Source: Octopus sinensis
Lineage: Eukaryota
NCBI RefSeq assembly: GCF_006345805.1
Contig: NW_021830452.1
Span: forward strand, 884-64,883
Reading direction: 5' to 3'
Length of the DNA: 64,000 nucleotides
The notes under the pieces are model-generated. The model searched no databases, was not told where the DNA came from, and saw nothing but the letters and a program-made list of their open reading frames with translations. Shown one piece after another: positions 1,951 to 60,529 of this stretch. The position numbers and the translations under genes were made by a program. Every line of letters begins with the position of its first letter. Within the stretch, counting starts at the first letter, position 1.

Positions 1951-2055
1951 GTATATATGAGCATGTCTAGATATGCATGAGAAGACATATATAAAACAGA
2001 ACATACAAATCTGTACGTATTCATACATAAAAACATAATTACATACATATACATA

Positions 2056-2466
2056 GGCGCAGGAGTGGCTGTGTGGTAAGTAGCTTGTCTACCAACCACA
2101 ATGTTCCGGTTCAGCCCACTGCGTGGCACCTTGGGCAAGTGTCTTTACTATAGCCTCGGGCCGACCAAAGCCTGTGAGTGGATTTGGTAGACGGAACTGA
2201 AAGAAGCCCGTCGTATATATGTTAATATATATATGTGTGCGTGTGTGTGTTTATGTGTCTGTGTTTGTCCCCTAGCATTGCTTGACAACCGATGCTGGTG
2301 TGTTTATGTCCCCGTTACTTGGCGGTTCGGCGAAGAAGACCGATAGAATAAGTACTGGGCGTACAAAAGAATAAGTCCCGGGGTCGAGTTGCTCGATTAA
2401 AGGCGGTGCTCCAGCATGGCCGCAGTCAAATGACTGAAACAAGTAAAAGAGTAAAGAGTAAGAGTA
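2056..2466 (+). mobile_element. SINE family B (tRNA head + CORE-like domain + internal microsatellite + 3' module), near full length
   Basis: A-box-like TGGCTGTGTGG, B-box-like GGTTCAGCCC, CORE-like GTGGCACCTTGGGCAAGTGTC, tail (AAGAGTA)n; homologues at 35.5, 41.2, 46.1 and 50.9 kb. Octopus OR SINEs are described as CORE-SINEs; exact family name not verified. Confidence 0.85.
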
Positions 2467-14470: not shown

Positions 14471-14860
14471 ACAGCTTGAGAAGGCAAAATCTTCGTCATT
14501 TATTTCTTTGTTTCATGTTGAATGTGTAAAGTATGACACCTTTCAATGTTTGTTGATCTCGCCTTTGGCAGTGCTAATTGTCTTCCAAATAGTTTTGTTT
14601 AGTTTGATCGCTTTCATTTAGCCTTTCCGCAGTTTCAGTCATTGAGCTGCGGCCAAGCAGGAGCACTGCTGTTGAAGGTTTAAGTTGATTTTTGATGACT
14701 CCTGTACTCTGCTTTGTATTGCATTTATCTTCTAATCGAGAGAAAAAAGTTTCCCATACAAACGGATGCAACAAGACGGAACCAGATAACGTTTTCTTTT
14801 TCTTTTTTTTTTTTGCTGTAGTTTCAGCTCATAGCTGCGGCCATGCTGATGCACCACCGT

Positions 14861-15020
14861 TTGCGAGAAAGCTAGCGGGGACGCCGCCATGAGCGGCGTG
14901 GTGGGGACCCTCTTCTTCCCCGCGAGTCACACCGACGCGGCCGTAGCCGCTGCTGCAATAATTTTTGCTCAAAGAACCGATTCTGCTATCTCAAACAAGT
15001 ACATACATCATACCGGCATT
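14861..15020 (+). other. GC-rich island 1 replacing part of a SINE-B 3' module; short ORF 14889-15065
   Basis: About 70% GC over 14864-14950; GCCGCCATG; 58-codon ORF MSGVVGTLFFPASHTDAAVAAAAIIF..; several hairpins. Function unknown. Confidence 0.55.
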
Positions 15021-15035
15021 ATACATACATACATA

Positions 15036-15222
15036 GGAACAAACAAGGGCAGACAAACGGATTAAGTCGATTACATCGACCCCAGTGCGCAACTGGTACT
15101 TAATTTATCGACCCCGAAAGGATGTAAAGCGAAGTCGACCTCGGCGGAATTTGAACTCAGAACGTAGACAGACGAAAGCATTTCGCTCGGCGTGCTAAAT
15201 TTTCAGTCAGCTCGCCGCCTTA
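15036..15222 (-). mobile_element. SINE family A
   Basis: Reverse-complement match; divergent to the array starting at 15318. Confidence 0.9.
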
Positions 15223-15317
15223 GAGGATGTAAAAATAATATTATTATGATCCTTGCTAACAACACATACTTAACAGCAAGTGATGTTTATTGTTGCAATT
15301 AGATGTAATATGTTAAA

Positions 15318-16447
15318 GTGGCGAGCTGGCAGAAACGTTTGCACGCCGGGCGAAATGCGCAGCCGTATTTCGTCTGCCGTTACTTTCTGAGTTCAAATTC
15401 CGCCGAGGTCGACTTTGCCTTTCATCCTTTCGGGGTCGATAAATAAAGTACCAGTAAGGCACTGGGGTCGATGTAATCGACTTAATCCGTTTGTCTGTCC
15501 TTGTTTGTCCTCTCTGTGTGTAGTCCCTTGCGGTAGTAAAGAAATACGTATTTCGTCTGCCATTACGTTCTGAGTTCAAATTCCGCCGAGGTCGACTTTG
15601 CCTTTCATCCTTTCGGGGTCGATAAATAAAGTACCAGTAAGGCACTGGGGTCGATGTAATCGACTTAATCCGTTTGTCTGTCCTTGTTTGTCCTCTCTGT
15701 GTGTAGTCCCTTGCGGTAGTAAAGAAATACGTATTTCGTCTGCCATTACGTTCTGAGTTCAAATTCCACCGAGGTCGACTTTGCCTTTCATCCTTTCGGG
15801 GTCGATAAATAAAGTACCAGTAAGGCACTGGGGTCGATGTAATCGACTTAATCCGTTTGTCTGTCCTTGTTTGTCCTCTCTGTGTGTAGTCCCTTGCGGT
15901 AGTAAAGAAATACGTATTTCGTCTGCCGTTACTTTCTGAGTTCAAATTCCGCCGAGGTCGACTTTGCCTTTCATCCTTTCGGGGTCGATAAATAAAGTAC
16001 CAGTAAGGCACTGGGGTCGATGTAATCGACTTAATCCGTTTGTCTGTCCTTGTTTGTCCTCTCTGTGTGTAGTCCCTTGCGGTAGTAAAGAAATACGTAT
16101 TTCGTCTGCCATTACGTTCTGAGTTCAAATTCCACCGAGGTCGACTTTGCCTTTCATCCTTTCGGGGTCGATAAATAAAGTACCAGTAAGGCACTGGGGT
16201 CGATGTAATCGACTTAATCCGTTTGTCTGTCCTTGTTTGTCCTCTCTGTGTGTAGTCCCTTGCGGTAGTAAAGAAATACGTATTTCGTCTGCCATTACGT
16301 TCTGAGTTCAAATTCCGCCGAGGTCGACTTTGCCTTTCATCCTTTCGGGATCGACAAATTACGTAGCAGTTGCATACTGGGGTCGATTTAATTGATTGGC
16401 CCTCTCCCCCCAAATTTCGGTCCTTGTGCCTAGAATAGAAAAGAATT
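15318..16447 (+). repeat. Tandem array of SINE-A bodies: one head, five 183-bp units, terminal unit with tail type 2
   Basis: Units start (GTATTTCG) at 15365, 15548, 15731, 15914, 16097 and 16280. Confidence 0.97.
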
Positions 16448-16477: not shown

Positions 16478-16690
16478 GGTGAGCTGGCAGAATGGTTAGC
16501 ACGCCGAGCAAAATGCTTGGCGGCATTTCGTTCGTCTTTATGTGCTGAGTTCTAATTCCACCGAGGTCGACATTGCGCTTCATTCTATCGGATGTCGATA
16601 AATTAAATATCAGTTGAACACTAGGGTCGATGTGATCGTCTACTCCCCTACCTCGAAATTACTGGCCTAGTGCCAAAATTTGAAGCCATT
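16478..16690 (+). mobile_element. SINE family A, diverged (tail 2)
   Basis: Homology to other copies. Confidence 0.8.
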
Positions 16691-16779
16691 ATTCTTTTAT
16701 TTGTTTCAGTCATTTGACAGCGTCCATGCTAGAGCACCGCCTTTTAGTCGAACATGCCATTAAGTCAGCTCCTCTCGAT

Positions 16780-17228: not shown

Positions 17229-17395
17229 ATGAGCAACAATAGCGTAGGTGAAGAGGGGGCGGGGGAGCAGTCCATCTTGTACGACGCTTTTAAGGAGGCG
17301 GCACATCTGGGTTTGCTGCATAAGTCTGTGTAGAGTGTTAGGGGCCCCGCTGTGGAGGAAAGATAAAGGGCTACCCCGGGCGGCACATACTCCAT
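17229..17395. other. GC-rich island 2
   Basis: Purine/G-rich ~165 nt between a (GT)n run and a SINE-B-like remnant; internal GGCGGCACAT direct repeat; 34-codon ATG ORF. Confidence 0.5.
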
Positions 17396-20831: not shown

Positions 20832-21380
20832 AGGTAGTGAGAGAGGTGGGGGAGAAGAAGAAATAAAATTATGGTGCTTTAAACTTATATCGTCCGCATG
20901 AAACATGTTCCAGAACAGATAAGACTCCAAGCCAATGATAAATACTGAAATTATCTTCAAAATAAGAAAAAGGTGAGTTGATTCCTCTGCACATGCAAAA
21001 AAATATGCATTAATAAAAAACGTTACAAAGAAACAAAATCGCGAGGGGTTAGAGTTAAGGCTTAAGGATTAAAGTTAGGGGTTTAAGATTAGAGTTTAAG
21101 GATTAAAGCAGTGTTTCTCAAACATTGTTTAGCTATGGAGCCCTTTCATTCTTATTTTATTCTGCTGGATCTCATTAATCATGGGATGTTTAAAAAAAAG
21201 TCCCATTATATTTTCATGATTAAATATTCTTTTACTTGTTTCAGTCATTTGACTGCAGCCATGTTGGGGCACCGCCTTTAGTCTAACAAATCGACTCCAG
21301 GACTTTTTGCTGAACCGCTAGATTACGGGGACGTAAACATACCAGCAACGGTTTTCAAGCGATGGTGTGGGGGACTTTTT

Positions 21381-21611
21381 GGCGGCGAGCTAGCAGAAGC
21401 GTTAGCACACCGGGCGAAATGCTTTGCGGTACTTCGTCTGCTGTTACGTTGTGAGTTCAAATTCCGCCGAGGTCGACTTTGCCTTTCATCCTTTCGGGGT
21501 CGATAAATTAAGTACCAGTTACGCACTGGGGTCGATGTAATCGACATAATACCTATGTCTGTCCTTGTTTGTCCCCTCTATTTTTAGCCCCTTGTGGGTA
21601 ATAAAGAAATA
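21381..21611 (+). mobile_element. SINE family A inserted into a SINE-B tail, 12-bp TSD
   Basis: GGTGTGGGGGAC at 21364-21375 and 21612-21623. Confidence 0.9.
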
Positions 21612-21881
21612 GGTGTGGGGGACAGGCACAGACACATATATATATATATATATTGCGTCTGTCTCTACGATCTGAGTTCAAATTCTGTTGGAGCCGACTT
21701 TGCCTTTCATCCGTTTCAGGGAGCGATAAAATAATTACCAGTTGAGTGCTGGCAGGCAGGCAAACACAACAGACAGACCGGCATTTAGATAGGTCAATAA
21801 ATTAAGTACCAGTGAAATACTGAGGTCGATGTAATTGACTAGTCCCCTCCCCACCAAATTGTGAAAAGAATTATTATTATC

Positions 21882-30932: not shown

Positions 30933-31671
30933 CAGTAGTTCTCGCATCTTTTCAATCTCAAGCACAGATTTTTTAATTATTTATTTTTAACTAAACGCTT
31001 TGAAACTTCGGATTCTGGTTGAATGTGTCACGTAGAACAGAGTTTACTGTTAACGATTTTGACAAAATTTTGTTTTTTAGAAGTTATTTCGTGTTAAAGT
31101 TGTCGTATTTGGGTAACTTGAACTAACCAAGGACGTGTATTCAGCTGAAGAAATTTACTGCTGCTGTTTGCGAACAACAGCTTGATTGATTAAAATTAGC
31201 CAAATACGACAACTTTATCACGAAATAACTTCTAAAATACAAAATTTTGTCAAAAACGCTAAGAGTAAATCGTGTTCTACGTGACACATTCAACTAGTAT
31301 CCGAAGTTTCAAAGTGATTAGTTTTAAAAAATTAATAGAAAAATATATGCTTGCGATTGAACAGATCTTAGTTCTCAACCGAGGTCCATACGACGCCTTG
31401 GGGTTCATTTAAGATATTATTGGTGGGGGTGGGGTCCACAATATTCTATGGGTCCAGAGAAAAAATTGCTTTAGATGTGTTTATTGCAAGAAAAAACTAG
31501 GTTTCTTTCTCTGGCATTTTACACAAGTGAATGACTGATAACGAAAATAAGAATTTTGAAAGAAGTATCTATCAAACCAGTTTTTAAACATCGAATGGTT
31601 ATGGGAGTTTACCAGAATAAAATAGTAATTAAAGGGGTCCATAGATAAAAAAATGTGGTTGAGAACCCTTG
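30933..31671 (-). mobile_element. hAT MITE (inverted homologue of 23493-23878) with a foldback element in its TIR
   Basis: CAGTAGTTCTC|AACC split by the insertion; other end GGTTGAGAACCCTTG; flanks ATGTAGAA / ACGTAGAG. Confidence 0.75.
30944..31368. mobile_element. Foldback / MULE-like element with ~170-bp inverted arms
   Basis: Arms ~30946-31116 and ~31196-31367; TAGTTCTC duplicated at 30936-43 and 31369-76. Confidence 0.8.
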
Positions 31672-41077: not shown

Positions 41078-43695
41078 CAGGGTTGCCGATTTAGCATATT
41101 CTATGCTAAATCTAGCATTTTTTTTTCAGCATTTAGCAGAAAATTTTTGAATCTAGCATTTAGCAGGGAAAATAGGTTTACTCTTTACTCTTTTACTTGT
41201 TTCAGTCATTTGACTGCGGCCATGCTGGAGCACTGCCTTTAGTCGAGCAAATCGACCCCGGGATTTATTCTTTGTAAGCCCAGTACTTATTCTATCAGTC
41301 TCTTTTGCCGAACCGCTAAGTTACGGGGACGTAAACACACCAGCATCGGCTGTCAAGCAATGCTAGGGGGACAAACACAGACACACAAACACACACACAT
41401 ACATATATATATATATACATATATACGACAGGCTTCTTTCAGTTTCCGTCTACCAAATCCACTCACAAGGCATTGGTCGGCCCGGGGCTATAGCAGAAGA
41501 CACTTGCCCAAGGTGCCACGCAGTGGGACTGAACCCGGAACCATGTGGTTGTTTAGCAAGCTACTTACCACACAGCCACTCCTGCGCCTATTTAAAATTT
41601 TTTTTAGCATTTTTCTCTGATCATGACATTTCCACAATAGTTCCCCTTTTTGCTTCTTTTTCTTCCTTTTCTACTTTCGTTGATGTATCTTATGGCCAAA
41701 TTTTAGTACTATCGGCTTTTGTTAAATTTTTGTTTCACTTTCTTGAAACTTCATTGAAAGTTTATGAAACGGAAGTTTATCAAGTTATGAACTTTTCCAC
41801 CCCACCCCCAACGACTTGGATACAGAGTGGTGCTGGTGGGGGAGGGGGAGAAGATAACTCATATCAGCGCCCGAACTCCCTACACAGTAATGTAAATATG
41901 TTGCAAAGAATGGAAGCATGGAAATTCGTCCAAAAAAATCCTTTATTCTGTTGTGATGTACAAAATGTTCAAATATTGTGAGAAATGTTCTAAGCTCCAT
42001 ATTTTGATGGAGATCTGATTTCTGATATAGGAGATAGAAAATTTAGCCTGTTATTAGATGAATCCATTGATATATCGATAAACAAGTTGTTAGGAATTAT
42101 TATTATCATATATCATAGTGACACTTATGAAAAAGTAGTGCATCCATATCTCAGTATGGTATCTTTAGAAACATGTGATGTGGATAGCATTGTAGATGCC
42201 TTAAAAATTGAATTAGTGAAAAAGAAATTAGATAATAAAAAGAATTAGTGGCTATAGGAACCGACAATGCTAGAGTAATGATAGGAATCAACAATGGAGT
42301 TTTCCAGAAATTAAAAGACGTTCCATCATTACTTCTGTTTAGATGTCTATGCTTGCCCACAAACTTAGAATTTTAGTATCCGAAACCTATAAATGGTCCT
42401 CTCATTTCTCAACAAGACAAAGTGTCTACAAACAACTTTACCTTACTATCAATGATAAAGAGCCTTTGAAGATCGTGAATTCTTGTACAACTAGGTATAT
42501 ATCAATAGAACAAGCGGTAAATAGAATTTTAAGCCAATGATTTGAATTGCAAACTCACTTCCAAACTACAACTACAAAAAAAAAAATGCTTTACAGCACA
42601 AACATTACATGAAATGTTTTGTGATTCTAGGAATGAACTTTACCATTTATTTTTGCATCCAATTTTAAAACATGTTCAGGAAGTGAATAAACTGTTTGAA
42701 TCAAACACTGTCGACAAACGAAAATTACTTGAAGATCTTTCAAATTTGATCAAATCGGTTGCTAATATGATAGTCTTACCAACATGAAGAATTGATTCTC
42801 TTGATCCTGTTGCTTCTATTGAAAACTTTCTGGATCCTAAACCAAATTTAGGCTACAGGTTTGAGAGAAAGATACAGAAATGGTCATCAAGAAAACTGGA
42901 AGAGCCACCGAAGAAAATAAATTTCGCAAAAGAGAACAAGAATTTTTACTCTGCCTTTATAAAGAGCTCAAGCACTGTTTGCCAGGAAATATCAATATGC
43001 TGAGGAATATCAAATGTTTTTTCAGTAGAGAATATTTTGCAGCATTTCAAAGAGCCAATTTTACCTGTCTTAGAAGCAATGCATTTAAATGAAGAAAAAA
43101 ATTGCTTCAGTTGAAATTCAGTTTAATTGCATTCATTTAGTTAAATGAACAAATACGTCTAATACTGAGGCATTCTAACTGGAAGTCTTGGAATATAAAG
43201 ATGCTACTGGAGAAAATCCTTTTAGAAATGTTGCAATTTTGCCATTAATTTATTGACATTGCTAAACTCAAATGCAGAAGTTGAACGGTTTTTCAGTAGT
43301 ATGGATGTAATCAAATCAAAATTGAAAAACAAAATGCATCTTCCCATGCTTAGATCAATACTGTCTATAAAATATGGCCTGAAAAGAAATGGCAAATGTT
43401 GCAAAATCTTCGATATTCCAAAACACATAATTAACAAGACTGGGACCTTGAATGTATACAGAAGTCAAGACCTAGGCACTGCAGCTGAATGTGATTAAAT
43501 CAGTGAAATTCAAGAAATTATTTCTCAATGCTGAATATTATTAAAGAAAGTAAATAAAAATGTAAATAAAAATCAAGTTTTTTTTATATAATTAGTCTTT
43601 AGCATTTTTTGTCATATTTAGCATGTTTTAGCATTTTTTGGTATTTCTTCAACTGAAATATAGCATAAAATTCTGATTTTAAATTGGCTACACTG
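41078..43695 (+). mobile_element. hAT DNA transposon with both ends, pseudogenised transposase
   Basis: TIRs CAGGGTTGCCGATTT vs (rc) CAGTGTAGCCAATTT; 8-bp TSD AGGCGGCG / AGGTGGCG; motifs FSLLLDESIDIS, GTDNARVM, TTRY, SNAEVERFFSSM. Confidence 0.92.
41179..41590 (-). mobile_element. SINE family B nested in the hAT 5' region
   Basis: Full-length reverse copy. Confidence 0.92.
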
Positions 43696-47517: not shown

Positions 47518-47891
47518 GAGGCGCAATGGCCCAGTGGTTAGGGCAGCGGACACGCGGTTTCGATTCCCAGACCGGGCGTTGTGAGTGTTTATTGAGCGAA
47601 AACACCTAAAGCTCCACGAGGCTCCGGCAGGGGATGGTAGTGATCCTTGCTGTACTCTTTCGCCACAACTTTCTCTCACTCTTACTTCCTGTTTCTGTTG
47701 TACCTGTATTTCAAAGGGCCGGCCTTGTCACTCTCTGTGTCACGCTGAATATCCCCGAGAACTACGTTAAGGGTACACGTGTCTGTGGAGTGCTCAGCCA
47801 CTTACACGTTAATTTCACGAGCAGGCTGTTCCGTTCATTCGGATCAACCGGAACCCTCGTCGTCGTAACCGACGGAGTGCTTCCCCAAAAA
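47518..47891 (+). mobile_element. tRNA-derived SINE family D, full length, 13-bp TSD
   Basis: A box TGGCCCAGTGG, B box GGTTTCGATTCC, A-tail; AGTCTTTTCAGTG at 47505-47517 and 47892-47904. Confidence 0.9.
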
Positions 47892-54450: not shown

Positions 54451-54996
54451 CATACATACATACATTATGGCTGCCCCCTCGTTATCGAGTATGGCCATTG
54501 CACGAAGCTTAACTGTTATTGGTGCTGTGATCGAATGTAACTTTTTAGCCCAGCTAAAGATCTACAATGTCTTGTACAGAATTGGCAGCTAAAACCTTTA
54601 CCGGCAATAGCCGGCTGTAGTTGTAACTGGGCTTCATGTACCTTTGCATGTCGTTTAAGTATTCCCGCCGAATTACACTCACTCTCTTCCACATGCCTGA
54701 CAGATATGATTAGTATGTTGTGTTGCACTACCACCAGTGGCTAGGTTGTCACTCATATGTCTCGCTTTATGACTACGAAGATGACTCTTGAGTACAGCTT
54801 TACTGAGGCAGGGTCTTGCACAGACACTGCATGTTAGCATCAAAGGAAGACCCTTCCCATCTGGAAGTGTAACAGCGATGCCCTTCCTGACATCCCTCCT
54901 TACTTTCTCATGTGCAACTCGAGATTTCTCAAAGGTGTCTGTCACCTCGTGCACAATCCTTCTCCGCCTGCTACGATCAATAGCTATGCCTTCCCA
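54451..54996 (-). mobile_element. RTE LINE 3' fragment encoding three C2H2 fingers, in (TACA)n
   Basis: WEGIAIDRS..FEKSR then CSVC..HLRSH, CQAC..HAKVH and CQFC..YIRSQH; a 4-bp GAGT duplication near 54680 shifts the frame; tail GGCAGCCATA(ATGT)n. Confidence 0.85.
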
Positions 54997-55207
54997 TACA
55001 TACATACATACATACATACATACATACATACATACATACATACACACATACACACATACATACATACATAAATGCATACATACATATACACACACATGTA
55101 TGCATGTATGCATGTATTTCTGTCTGTCTCAGTGCGTGACTGCTTGTCTGTTTGTCTGTCTCCCTCTCTCTCTTTCTCTTTCATTCTCTGTCTCCCTTAT
55201 CTATCTA

Positions 55208-56972: not shown

Positions 56973-57050
<78 letters not shown>

Positions 57051-57051
<1 letters not shown>

Positions 57052-59497
57052 CCGCCAACTCAATGACACCTCCTTCTATTCTCCTCTGCCCTCTAACCCC
57101 ACACGTAGCTACCAACAGACGGTATCCTCTACTGTCCAAGACCTCATCTCGTCCTCCCGTCTCCCCCGCACCGCATCCAACCTAATTGTGCGAACCCCAC
57201 GTACCCCCACCATTTACTTCTCTCCCCCAAATCCCCAAAACCCACAACCTGGCCGCCCCATCGTCTCCGCCTGTAACCGCCCCACGGAGCTCATCTCTAA
57301 ATACCTCGACCGTGTCCTTGCCCCCCTAGTGGCATCTCTTCCTCCCACATCCACGATACCAACCATGCTCTCCGGCTTTTCAACTCTTTCTCCTTTCCTC
57401 CCGGCTCCTCCAAAATCCTTTTTACTATGGACATCCAAAGCCTCTATACTGTTATCCCTCACCACGAAAGACTGCAGGCCCTTCGACACTTTCTTGACCT
57501 CCGCTCTAACCTTGTACCTGACACCTCCACACTCATTCGTCTGGGGAGTGGCCATGGGAACGCGAATGGGCCCCAACTATGCGAATCTGTTCGTTGGCTA
57601 TGTTGAGGCCCAAATATTCTCTAATTTCACTGGTCCCACTCCTGAACTATATGGTCGTTACATTGACGACATTATCGGTGCCACCTCACTCTCCCGCGAA
57701 CATCTAGATTCCTTCCTCTCTTTCGTCCAATCTTTCCATCCAGCCCTCCACTTCACTTCCACTATCTCCAACACCTCTGTCTCCTTCCTCGACATTTCGG
57801 TTAGCATTCTTCACTCCACTCTTACCACCTCCATTCACTACAAACACACAGACTCACACTCATACCTCAACTTCTCTTCCTCCCACCCAGAACACACCAA
57901 GCTTCCATCCCCTATTCCCAATTCCTCCGTCTACGTAGGCTCTGTAGTGACGACCATGACTTTGAGACTCAGTCTCAACGTATGGCTCACCACTTCACCC
58001 TACGTGGATACCCCCTCACCACTATCCACACCGCCCTTCCAGAGCACGGTCCGTGGACCGTGTATTTGCTCTCTCTCCCCGAACCCGCCCTGTAGTCTCC
58101 CGCCTCCATTTTCCCCTCACTTACCACCCCACGACCCTACGTCTCCAACGCACCATTCTTCGAGCTTTCCGTCATCTCCAGTCCAACCGTCCACTTCACA
58201 CCTCTTCCCTAACCGACCCCTCCCCTCTTTCAAACGAGCCCACAACCTTCGAGACCTTTTGGTCCATAGCTCCTTCCCTGACCCTACCTCCCAACCCGGC
58301 TCGTTCCCCTGCTCCCGCCCACGTTGCCGCACTGCCCTTACCTCTCCAACACCACCCGCCTCACTAGCACCCACCATCGACCCCATCCCATCATCCACTC
58401 CTTCACCTGCACCTCCAGCAATATTATCTATTGCATCTCTTGCTCTCTCTGCAATTCCTTGTACATCGGACAAACGGGACGCCGCTTGGCTGACCGGTTC
58501 GCGAACACCTTCGTGACATCCACCTGCGAACGACACACCGGTCTACGCCATTTCCGCTCCACCGGTCACTCCTTGCAACACTATCTGTGTTCGGTTTGTC
58601 CTTACACAGAGGCCATCGGATTCCCGTTTGCGCCGTGAACAGGAATTAATCTTCTCTCTTCGCTTTATACGCCATTTGGTCTCAACTCTCCCCCCTCCTC
58701 ATCTAACCCCCCTCTCCCCATCCTCACCTATCCCCCCCCCTGACCCCTACTTCTTCAGTCCTTCATCCTTTCACCCCTACTCCCCTCCTTCTTCCCTCTT
58801 TCCTCTCCCTCCTTCCCTCTTCCTCTGCTCCCTCACTCCCCTTCTCCCCCCTCCCCTTCTTCCCCCCTCCTCTCCCCTCTATCCCCCCTTCTCCCCCCTC
58901 TTCTTCCCCCCTTCCCCCCTCTTCTCCTCACTACACCACACGACTTTACACATCACATCATATATGATGTGCCATACTAATACATACACCAACTAATACA
59001 TACTAATACGTACTAAACATACTAATACATACTAAACATACACCAACCCTATACATACACACGTCCAGACCCCTCATACGCACTTATACTCTCTCATAAC
59101 ACACACACAACACTTATACATACTAATACGTACTATACATTACTAATACTACTAATACATACACCAACCCCATACATACGCCTGTCCAGACCTATCCTAG
59201 GGTCATTCAACCCTATTATCAACCCTATTATCTCCCCTTATTTCGCTCTCGCGTCTCATGTTTGATCTTTGACCTCTGGCCGAAATCAGATCGCCATGTT
59301 GATTCGTTAGTTACTGCACGCATTTTTTTCTCTCTTTTTCTGGTGTTTTTTCTCTCTGTGTATCTTTCTGTTGAAGAGCGTAGGCTCGAAATGTTAAAGA
59401 CTTGTTTTATTTATATTTCCTGAGCGCCATACTAATACAATTGTTTGTTTGTTTTCCACCTGCCTTCGTCTTTTGTCTATTTTCATAAAGCTTCCCG

Positions 59498-59530: not shown

Positions 59531-59533
59531 AAC

Positions 59534-59749
59534 TTTAGTTATTTCTCGTTGCAAATTATATATTCTATTATTATTTACAGACAACCTCCTCTTTGGGACG
59601 TAGATTTCAAAAGTGTATTTAGGATCAAAAGGCTCTGAAACGGTGAACCCTCGGGAAATACGAATTTGACTTTTGAAATCTTCGTCCCAAAGAGAAGGTT
59701 GTCTGTAAATAATAATAGAAAATATAATTTGCAACGAGAAATAACTAAA
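59534..59749. mobile_element. Short foldback / MITE with 81-bp arms
   Basis: Arms 59534-59614 and 59669-59749, 3 mismatches, 54-bp spacer. Confidence 0.9.
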
Positions 59750-60529
59750 CTTTGAGACCGACAAATCTCCCACCCTCTATCTGTCAAACAGGTTCTCTCT
59801 CTCTCTCTCTCTTCTTATTTCCATCTCTCTATATATTTACCACACTCTCTTTGTTATATTTACCACCCTCTCTTTGTGTATATACTACCTCTCACGTATG
59901 TTACTCCCCATCTCTCTCCCCTCCTCTCTCTCTCCATATGATATGCAATTTGCTTTCATCTTCTTTAAAACTTCGTCGTCTAATATTTACTTTCATTTTA
60001 TGATACAGCTATTAAACACAAATTCTGTTTTCTTTCTAGGTAAAAATGCCCAAAATTTAAACATCTGTAACATTTTTCTAAATTTATTTTTGGAAAGAAT
60101 GAATCACAAAATCGGATTTAGCGCGAAAATGTGCATCAATAAACCAAATTTGAAAATTTTCACTTAATCTGAAAATTTCAAAATCTGTTCCTGGAACGGA
60201 AAAGATCTCCCCATCTATTTATCTATATATTTATCTCTTTAATTTCCGATTTTCTCATCGTGAACTTCCTCCATCTATATATATATATATATTTATCACA
60301 CTGTCTCACTCTAAACATGTTCATTGCTTACGCTGTGTGAGAGAGAGAGAGAGGGAGAGAGAGAGTGTGACTATGTGAGAGAGAGAGTGTGTGTGTGAGG
60401 GTGTGTGTATGCATGTGAAGCACGTCATATATATACATATATATGCACGGTGCTATCTATCTATCTATCAGATCTCACTATCGCATCAATCTATCACACC
60501 TATCTATATGTAATAGATGTGATTGAAGT

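What the first reader, a model, noticed from the sequence alone, without database searches (positions are those of the whole stretch)
14861..15065. GC island 1: Kozak ATG, codon-biased short ORF and stacked hairpins replacing a SINE module
A SINE-B tail (-) stops at 14862. The ~160 nt expected up to its microsatellite (compare 41238-41400) are replaced by about the same length of unrelated sequence, with no TSD. It contains GCCGCCATG and a 58-codon ORF in which 16 of the 17 codons after ATG end in G/C, then switch to mostly A/T-ending. Stems: GCGGGGA/TCCCCGC enclosing ACGCCGC-CATGA-GCGGCGT (ATG in the loop), and GCGGC-CGTA-GCCGC. Options: foreign DNA, a structured RNA gating a micro-ORF, or an assembly/engineered artefact.
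Basis: partly seen in the sequence, partly recalled or inferred. Interest (0 to 1): 0.7.

Follow-up and report, generated by a model that had tools for sequence, protein, structure and literature searches.

The report
Probable sequencing garble between two SINEs
A short GC-rich stretch between two common jumping-gene copies is most likely a patch of badly read sequence left in the assembly, or else ordinary repeat debris, and its start codon, tiny reading frame and hairpins look incidental.

Summary
The motifs are there: GCCGCCATG at 14883, a 58-codon ORF (14889-15065), two 5-7 bp hairpins. They add up to little. Folding z is -0.7 to -2.1; 149 ATG ORFs this long occur in the window; the G/C-ending run starts five codons before the ATG (22 of 23, P 0.01-0.02, post hoc). 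No RNA family, protein, plasmid, phage or bacterial source was found.

The island is not wholly unrelated to the SINE. Its first 50 nt echo the SINE-B module with many deletions (2 of 400 shuffles); 14911-14995 stays unassigned. The neighbouring SINE-A copy is the most damaged of 9 young copies, is the only one of 13 lacking its 3' block, and is one arm of a tight inverted repeat. A Penelope-like element in the window has 11-12 frameshifts, nearly all -1, and no stops, which points to uncorrected long-read errors.

Best reading (0.55): an unpolished low-quality read patch. Main rival (0.33): a real 144-nt truncated retro-insert on the minus strand, bracketed by an 8-nt direct repeat. Under both, the ORF is antisense to the repeat unit and incidental. 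Reads or a second assembly would decide.

The parts
14618..14795 (-). Diverged composite SINE fragment: same tail (14632-14670) plus a SINE-A-like body
   Evidence: Tail match; body 14672-14795 aligns to SINE-A copy 26853 (z 3.8, 2 of 1000 shuffles) and to copy 60926 (z 4.3, 3 of 1000)
14793..14817 (+). T-rich tract where young SINE-B copies have short TTTTAC-type repeats; 14810-14817 is the left copy of the 8-nt direct repeat
14818..14862 (-). SINE/LINE-type 3' tail with two small hairpins; the second reads CAGCT-ATG-AGCTG where SINE-B has CAGTC-AAAT-GACTG
14861..14910 (-). Deletion-rich echo of the SINE-B 3' module: + strand anchors GCTAG, CGGGGACG and GGGGAC in the same order and orientation as in SINE-B
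   Evidence: 2 of 400 shuffles; boundary chosen after looking
14874..14942 (+). Run of 22 of 23 G/C-ending triplets, starting five codons before the ATG; modest and unexplained
14881..14899 (+). 7-bp hairpin with ATG in the loop, overlapping GCCGCCATG (14883-14891)
   Evidence: a 7-bp stem arises in 5-6.5% of 2000 shuffles
14889..15065 (+). 58-codon ORF; crosses a CATA-like repeat and stops inside the antisense SINE-A; judged incidental
14911..14995 (.). Unassigned part of the island; holds the 5-bp hairpin 14937-14950 and the right copy of the 8-nt repeat (14962-14969)
   Evidence: No similarity to post-tail sequence (194 and 181 of 400 shuffles) or to the rest of the window (25 of 30 shuffled maxima as high)
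14996..15030 (+). Irregular CATA-like repeat standing where the SINE-A 3' block should be
15031..15225 (-). SINE-A copy with 14 private change events, 12 of them in the head-side half; left arm of an inverted pair
15312..16395 (+). Inverted SINE-A partner running into a 183-bp x 5.6 tandem array (97% identity between units)

Best explanation
The island is a low-quality long-read patch that survived into the assembly. The true DNA is probably ordinary SINE sequence: the continuation of the SINE-B-type tail on the left and the 3' end of the SINE-A on the right. Shown: both flanking SINEs break at the island, the first 50 nt keep SINE-B anchors in order, the right-hand SINE is unusually damaged, and repeats elsewhere in the window carry deletion-type errors. 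Inferred: the strand was read with missed and miscalled bases, plausibly because the SINE-A pair 15031-15225 / 15312-16395 folds back behind the pore, and polishing could fix only stretches that still resembled something. The Kozak-like 9-mer, ORF and hairpins are by-products of a 67% GC string.
For: Penelope-like element 57053-58687: 12, 11 and 12 frameshifts against three homologues, 10 of 12, 8 of 11 and 10 of 12 of them -1, no stop in 533-534 aligned codons. SINE-B copy 2055-2450 has clustered 1-2 nt deletions and a base swap. The flanking SINE-A has 14 private events against 3-9 in 8 other young copies, none CpG-type against 7 of 48. It is the only one of 13 SINE-A copies without the 3' block (one microsatellite row dropped; 5 of the 12 are array units). 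It is an arm of an inverted repeat, 93-94% over 128 nt. The island's best whole-window match under two skip-rich pair-HMMs is 21307(+), inside a SINE-B module just past a tail (1-2 of 30 shuffled maxima as high). First 50 nt: 2 of 400 shuffles, E. coli GC-matched controls for the 135-nt query 1-2 of 200. Same-strand GGGGAC pairs under 50 nt apart occur only in five SINE-B modules and the island. The tails at 14632 and 14821 share the same two departures from consensus, seen in 0 of 10 other tails, although their bodies differ. PMC7229812 (results section read): inverted duplicates give miscalled and missed bases. PMC8486125 (passages): deletions are the commonest nanopore error.
Against: No reads were available, so nothing is direct. 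Most whole-island alignments to SINE-B were at chance (the wrong-strand control of the chain test scored higher than the island for 14861-15000). 14911-14995 matches nothing. 2-3 of 24 Penelope pieces beat the island in the test, so composition can fake it. The island is not a mirror of the adjacent SINE-A (z -1.8 to -3.0) and only weakly of the array (z 1.0-2.2). The half of SINE-A nearest the island is the accurate half. PMC8486125 reports substitution errors drifting towards A/T, the opposite of this island. All tail changes keep both hairpins paired, two pairs compensatory. An 8-nt direct repeat sits where a TSD would. No E. coli-like k-mer signature (z -0.1) and no adapter remnant.
Confidence: 0.55

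Rival explanations
1. Real but ordinary repeat debris: a 144-nt, 5'-truncated retro-insert (14818-14961, minus-strand sense) from a sister SINE or partner LINE that shares the tail, inserted into an A-rich site with an 8-nt target-site duplication; or a deleted and patched junction between two SINEs. The + strand ORF is antisense and incidental.
For: Direct repeat TTTTTGCT at 14810 and 14962, abutting the tail end and the GC drop. Tail changes preserve both hairpins. The neighbouring tail at 14632 shares two variants. SINE-B anchors would then be shared ancestry. Truncated tails with unrelated upstream sequence exist at 16731 and 19047. Module exchange by template switching is described for SINEs (PMC4758252, PMC4824008, PMC5786205; passages). 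I recall, untested, that octopod repeats include a second tail variant of this kind.
Against: An 8-nt repeat in this geometry arises at about 6% of 4287 random sites and 1 of 8 other tails has a 9-nt one. No second copy in 64 kb. It does not explain the damaged SINE-A or its missing 3' block without extra events.
Confidence: 0.33
2. Foreign coding DNA (bacterial, contaminant chimera or engineered) captured between the SINEs.
For: Third-position GC 22 of 23 against 15 and 14 at the other positions; 13 CpG in 100 nt; unique in the window.
Against: No match covering more than 27% of the query in plasmids or phages (best E 0.04), none in E. coli. No exact 24-mer in 185,579 GTDB genomes. One tblastn candidate of 600 (L004) vanishes at collection-scale E and has no DNA similarity. 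No protein relative, Pfam best E 0.051, PDB best E 0.3.
Confidence: 0.06
3. A functional structured RNA that hides a Kozak ATG and gates a 58-aa peptide.
For: GCCGCCATG appears in 0.25% of 20,000 shuffles (post hoc); the ATG lies in a hairpin loop; z -2.1 for the best sub-stretch.
Against: No Rfam match over the island at E <= 10 and none in the window at gathering scores. HDV-like descriptor incomplete and no hammerhead core. 149 equal-length ATG ORFs in the window. The GC3 run begins before the ATG. The ORF ends in repeat sequence and has no homologue.
Confidence: 0.03

Closest known systems
Nanopore low-accuracy segments at inverted duplications (PMC7229812)
   Same: A garbled, shortened stretch beside a close inverted repeat, with missed bases; deletion-type errors elsewhere in the window.
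   Different: The island lies just beyond the matched arm and is not a demonstrable mirror of it; the platform is inferred; no quality scores were seen.
tRNA-derived CORE-type SINEs of octopus (OR1/OR2, Ohshima and Okada 1994, as cited in PMC4824008 and PMC4758252)
   Same: SINE-B has a tRNA-like head followed by CCTTGGG (2132-2138), the motif PMC5786205 gives as shared by CORE and Ceph domains; the focal tail and first 50 nt relate to its 3' module. Assigning the host to octopods rests on my recall of these repeats, not on a call.
Chimeric or tail-exchanged SINEs made by LINE template switching (PMC4758252, PMC5786205)
   Same: A known tail joined to an unrelated 5' part, with a possible short TSD.
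   Different: Single copy in the window; donor unidentified; TSD not beyond chance.
HDV-like ribozymes at retrotransposon 5' ends
   Same: GC-rich with short stems; a P3/L3/P1-like partial arrangement at 14913-14933.
   Different: No P2 partner with a catalytic C, GA instead of GG after P1, no Rfam match.

Membership tests
Long-read low-quality patch | Low read quality or disagreement with accurate reads at the locus | not testable with these tools
   No reads or second assembly available
Long-read low-quality patch | Residual deletion-biased errors in repeats of the same assembly | tested here: met
   (11-12 frameshifts, mostly -1, no stops)
Long-read low-quality patch | Nearby inverted repeat | tested here: met
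   15039-15166 against six array or partner arms, 89-94%
Long-read low-quality patch | Garbled stretch is a shortened mirror of the leading arm | tested here: inconclusive
   Weak for the array (z 1.0-2.2); negative for the adjacent SINE-A
SINE-B (CORE-type tRNA SINE) copy | 3' tail with two hairpins | tested here: met
   (variant second hairpin)
SINE-B (CORE-type tRNA SINE) copy | 150-nt 3' module | tested here: inconclusive
   First 50 nt 2 of 400 shuffles; whole module at chance
SINE-B (CORE-type tRNA SINE) copy | tRNA-like head and CORE motif | tested here: not met
   Absent; a SINE-A copy follows instead
Retro-insert by target-primed reverse transcription | Target-site duplication | tested here: inconclusive
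   8-nt repeat 14810/14962; about 6% by chance
Retro-insert by target-primed reverse transcription | Other copies or an identifiable donor family | not testable with these tools
   None in 64 kb; no animal genome collection on hand
Protein-coding micro-ORF | Homologues or conservation | tested here: not met
   the protein sets cover this host thinly (best Penelope hit 80%)
Protein-coding micro-ORF | Transcription and translation | not testable with these tools
   No RNA data
HDV-like ribozyme | P2 pseudoknot with catalytic C, and P1.1 | tested here: not met
   Rfam
Hammerhead ribozyme | CUGANGA core | tested here: not met
Nanopore adapter remnant | Match to the ligation adapter above background | tested here: not met
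   53-149 of 4264 tiles score as high

The most novel reading that the evidence does not exclude
The island is real: a GC-rich, codon-patterned fragment of non-host RNA or DNA was joined to a SINE/LINE tail by template switching and inserted as a 144-nt unit with an 8-nt target-site duplication. That would be SINE-tail-mediated capture of foreign sequence in an animal genome, or the 3' end of an undescribed retroelement family with a compensated tail hairpin.
Probability: 0.07. Interest if true: 0.45.

Novelty: not a real feature. Interest (0 to 1): 0.1.

Why it matters
Mainly as a caution: in this assembly, repeats carry uncorrected read errors, so short odd-looking islands and frameshifts should not be read as biology without read support. 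If accurate reads confirm the island, it would mark a new tail variant or a capture event in this animal's retroelements, a modest point for SINE evolution. Nothing found supports a regulated micro-protein.

Tried and rejected
Source searches, all negative: BLASTn of 14850-15010 against plasmids, phages and E. coli; exact 24-mer and protein-guided scan of GTDB; word-based protein search of the + ORF and of the 53-aa minus frame (near lengths only); phmmer of the 71-aa + frame against 1.84 billion proteins; Pfam for 5 frames; PDB; Rfam; ARAGORN. Three of the five frames were checked against Pfam only. The ESM Atlas gave no answer. Viral and metagenome contigs and any animal genome collection stayed unchecked.

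Ideas that failed: simple collinear homology to SINE-B, short-gap pair-HMM, k-mer chain, E. coli-like hexamer bias (held-out E. coli tiles mean z 2.4), mirror of the adjacent SINE-A, adapter remnant, HDV-like and hammerhead folds. A top hit at 54816 came from CATA repeats and vanished once they were left out of the query. About ten alignment schemes were tried, so the positive SINE-B result is post hoc.

Literature searches gave no SINE consensus for this host and nothing on molluscan start-codon context; I make no claim that these are not in print.

Full report
Setting. The window is an AT-rich (37% GC), microsatellite-rich animal sequence with two abundant SINE families, called A and B here as in the finding. 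That it is an octopod rests on my recall of these repeats and on no call. SINE-B has a tRNA-like head followed by CCTTGGG, which PMC5786205 (passages) gives as common to CORE and Ceph domains; PMC4824008 and PMC4758252 (passages) list octopus OR1/OR2 as CORE-SINEs.

Observation. The listed motifs are present. The outer and inner stems share A14881, and the + strand fold uses another partner for TCCCCGC. Folding z is -0.72 for the whole stretch and -1.0 to -2.1 for six sub-stretches; 6 of 70 GC-rich tiles do as well. A 7-bp stem arises in 5-6.5% of shuffles, and ATG ORFs of 58 codons or more occur 149 times in the window. The GC3 run is longer than reported, 22 of 23 from 14874, but it begins five codons before the ATG; P is 0.01-0.02 post hoc and 4 of 121 GC-rich tiles match its asymmetry. 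The later switch to A/T follows the drop in GC at 14960. GCCGCCATG appears in 0.25% of shuffles, a motif picked after the fact. This modest triplet pattern is the one feature I cannot explain.

Source searches. Nothing in Rfam over the island, plasmids, phages or E. coli, GTDB by exact 24-mer, or protein sets. The one GTDB candidate of 600, L004, gives no hit at collection-scale E and no DNA similarity. These negatives weigh against a prokaryotic or known-protein source. They say little about host repeats, since the best hit for the window's Penelope-like protein is only 80% identical and no animal genomes could be searched.

Relation to the SINEs. As a whole the island does not align to the SINE-B module above chance. 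Its first 50 nt, however, carry GCTAG, CGGGGACG and GGGGAC in SINE-B order and orientation. Same-strand GGGGAC pairs under 50 nt apart occur only in five SINE-B modules and here, and 0 of 20,000 shuffles had two. With long deletions allowed, the best of 128,000 window start points is 21307(+), inside a SINE-B module just past a tail (1-2 of 30 shuffled maxima as high; not top under the mild-gap model). Against the sequence after ten other tails, 14861-14910 is reached by 2 of 400 shuffles, while 14911-14995 is at chance. Caveats: many schemes were tried, and 2-3 of 24 Penelope pieces scored higher in that test. On the right, the SINE-A copy lacks the 3' block that 12 of 12 other copies keep (5 are array units). 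So the island replaces the ends of both neighbours.

Evidence for bad sequence. The flanking SINE-A has 14 private events against 3-9 in eight other young copies, none CpG-type, including a scrambled block that the other young copies keep intact. It is an arm of a close inverted repeat with a 183-bp array. The Penelope-like element at 57053-58687 shows 11-12 frameshifts, mostly -1, with no stop in 533-534 codons, and SINE-B at 2055-2450 has clustered small deletions. PMC8486125 (passages) finds deletions the commonest nanopore error; PMC7229812 (part 2 of 4: end of methods, results, start of discussion) shows inverted duplicates causing miscalled and missed bases. The two adjacent tails at 14632 and 14821 share two departures absent from ten other tails although their bodies differ, as repeated context-dependent miscalls would give. 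The platform and the fold-back cause are inferred.

Evidence against. The island is not a mirror of the adjacent SINE-A and only weakly of the array; the SINE-A half next to it is the accurate half. PMC8486125 reports errors drifting to A/T. All changes in the tail keep its two hairpins, two pairs compensatory. An 8-nt direct repeat brackets 14818-14961, though such repeats arise at about 6% of random sites. These points support a real 5'-truncated insert of a sister family on the minus strand; module exchange is described for SINEs. Tests for E. coli-like k-mers, an adapter remnant (sequence from bioRxiv 10.1101/2022.07.07.499093, passages; test) and HDV-like or hammerhead folds were negative.

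Verdict. Artefact 0.55, ordinary retroelement debris 0.33, foreign DNA 0.06, functional RNA with micro-ORF 0.03. Under the two leading readings the meaningful strand is minus and the Kozak, ORF and hairpin arrangement is incidental. Interest 0.1. SINE consensus sequences in figures and supplements of the cited papers were not seen and could bear on the sister-family reading.

Noticed in passing
window 57030-58700 (+): Penelope-like element (reverse transcriptase with YIDD, GIY-YIG-like end; motif names from my knowledge, homologues carry PF00078 and one PF01541), 53-57% identical to three homologues, 11-12 frameshifts and no stops.
   Followed up: yes
window 15364-16392: 183-bp x 5.6 tandem array of head-truncated SINE-A units; units differ at only three positions, in recurring variants.
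   Followed up: partly
window 21230-21620: Composite of an internally deleted SINE-B and an oppositely oriented SINE-A; best window match to the island.
   Followed up: yes
window 2055-2450: SINE-B copy with clustered 1-2 nt deletions and a base swap in its head, another likely error patch.
   Followed up: partly
window 54679-55000 (-): Open frame ending in a C2H2-like stretch, like the C-terminus of an RTE-type LINE ORF2 (recalled), next to a CATA microsatellite.
   Followed up: no
window 30946-31366: Inverted repeat, 186-nt arms, 85% complementary, 49-nt spacer; MITE-like.
   Followed up: no
window 59531-59752: Inverted repeat, 95-nt arms, 91% complementary, 32-nt spacer.
   Followed up: no
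window 47520-47880: GC-rich stretch with a tRNA-like start, probably a third SINE family.
   Followed up: no
window 17240-17390: Another GC-rich stretch (62% over 60 nt) outside the masked SINEs, unassigned.
   Followed up: no
window 16690-16760: SINE-B tail truncated after about 15 nt of module, followed by unrelated sequence.
   Followed up: partly
L004:501-599: A frame in a Phnomibacter genome shares 11 consecutive residues with the ORF; no DNA similarity and no hit at collection-scale E, taken as chance.
   Followed up: yes
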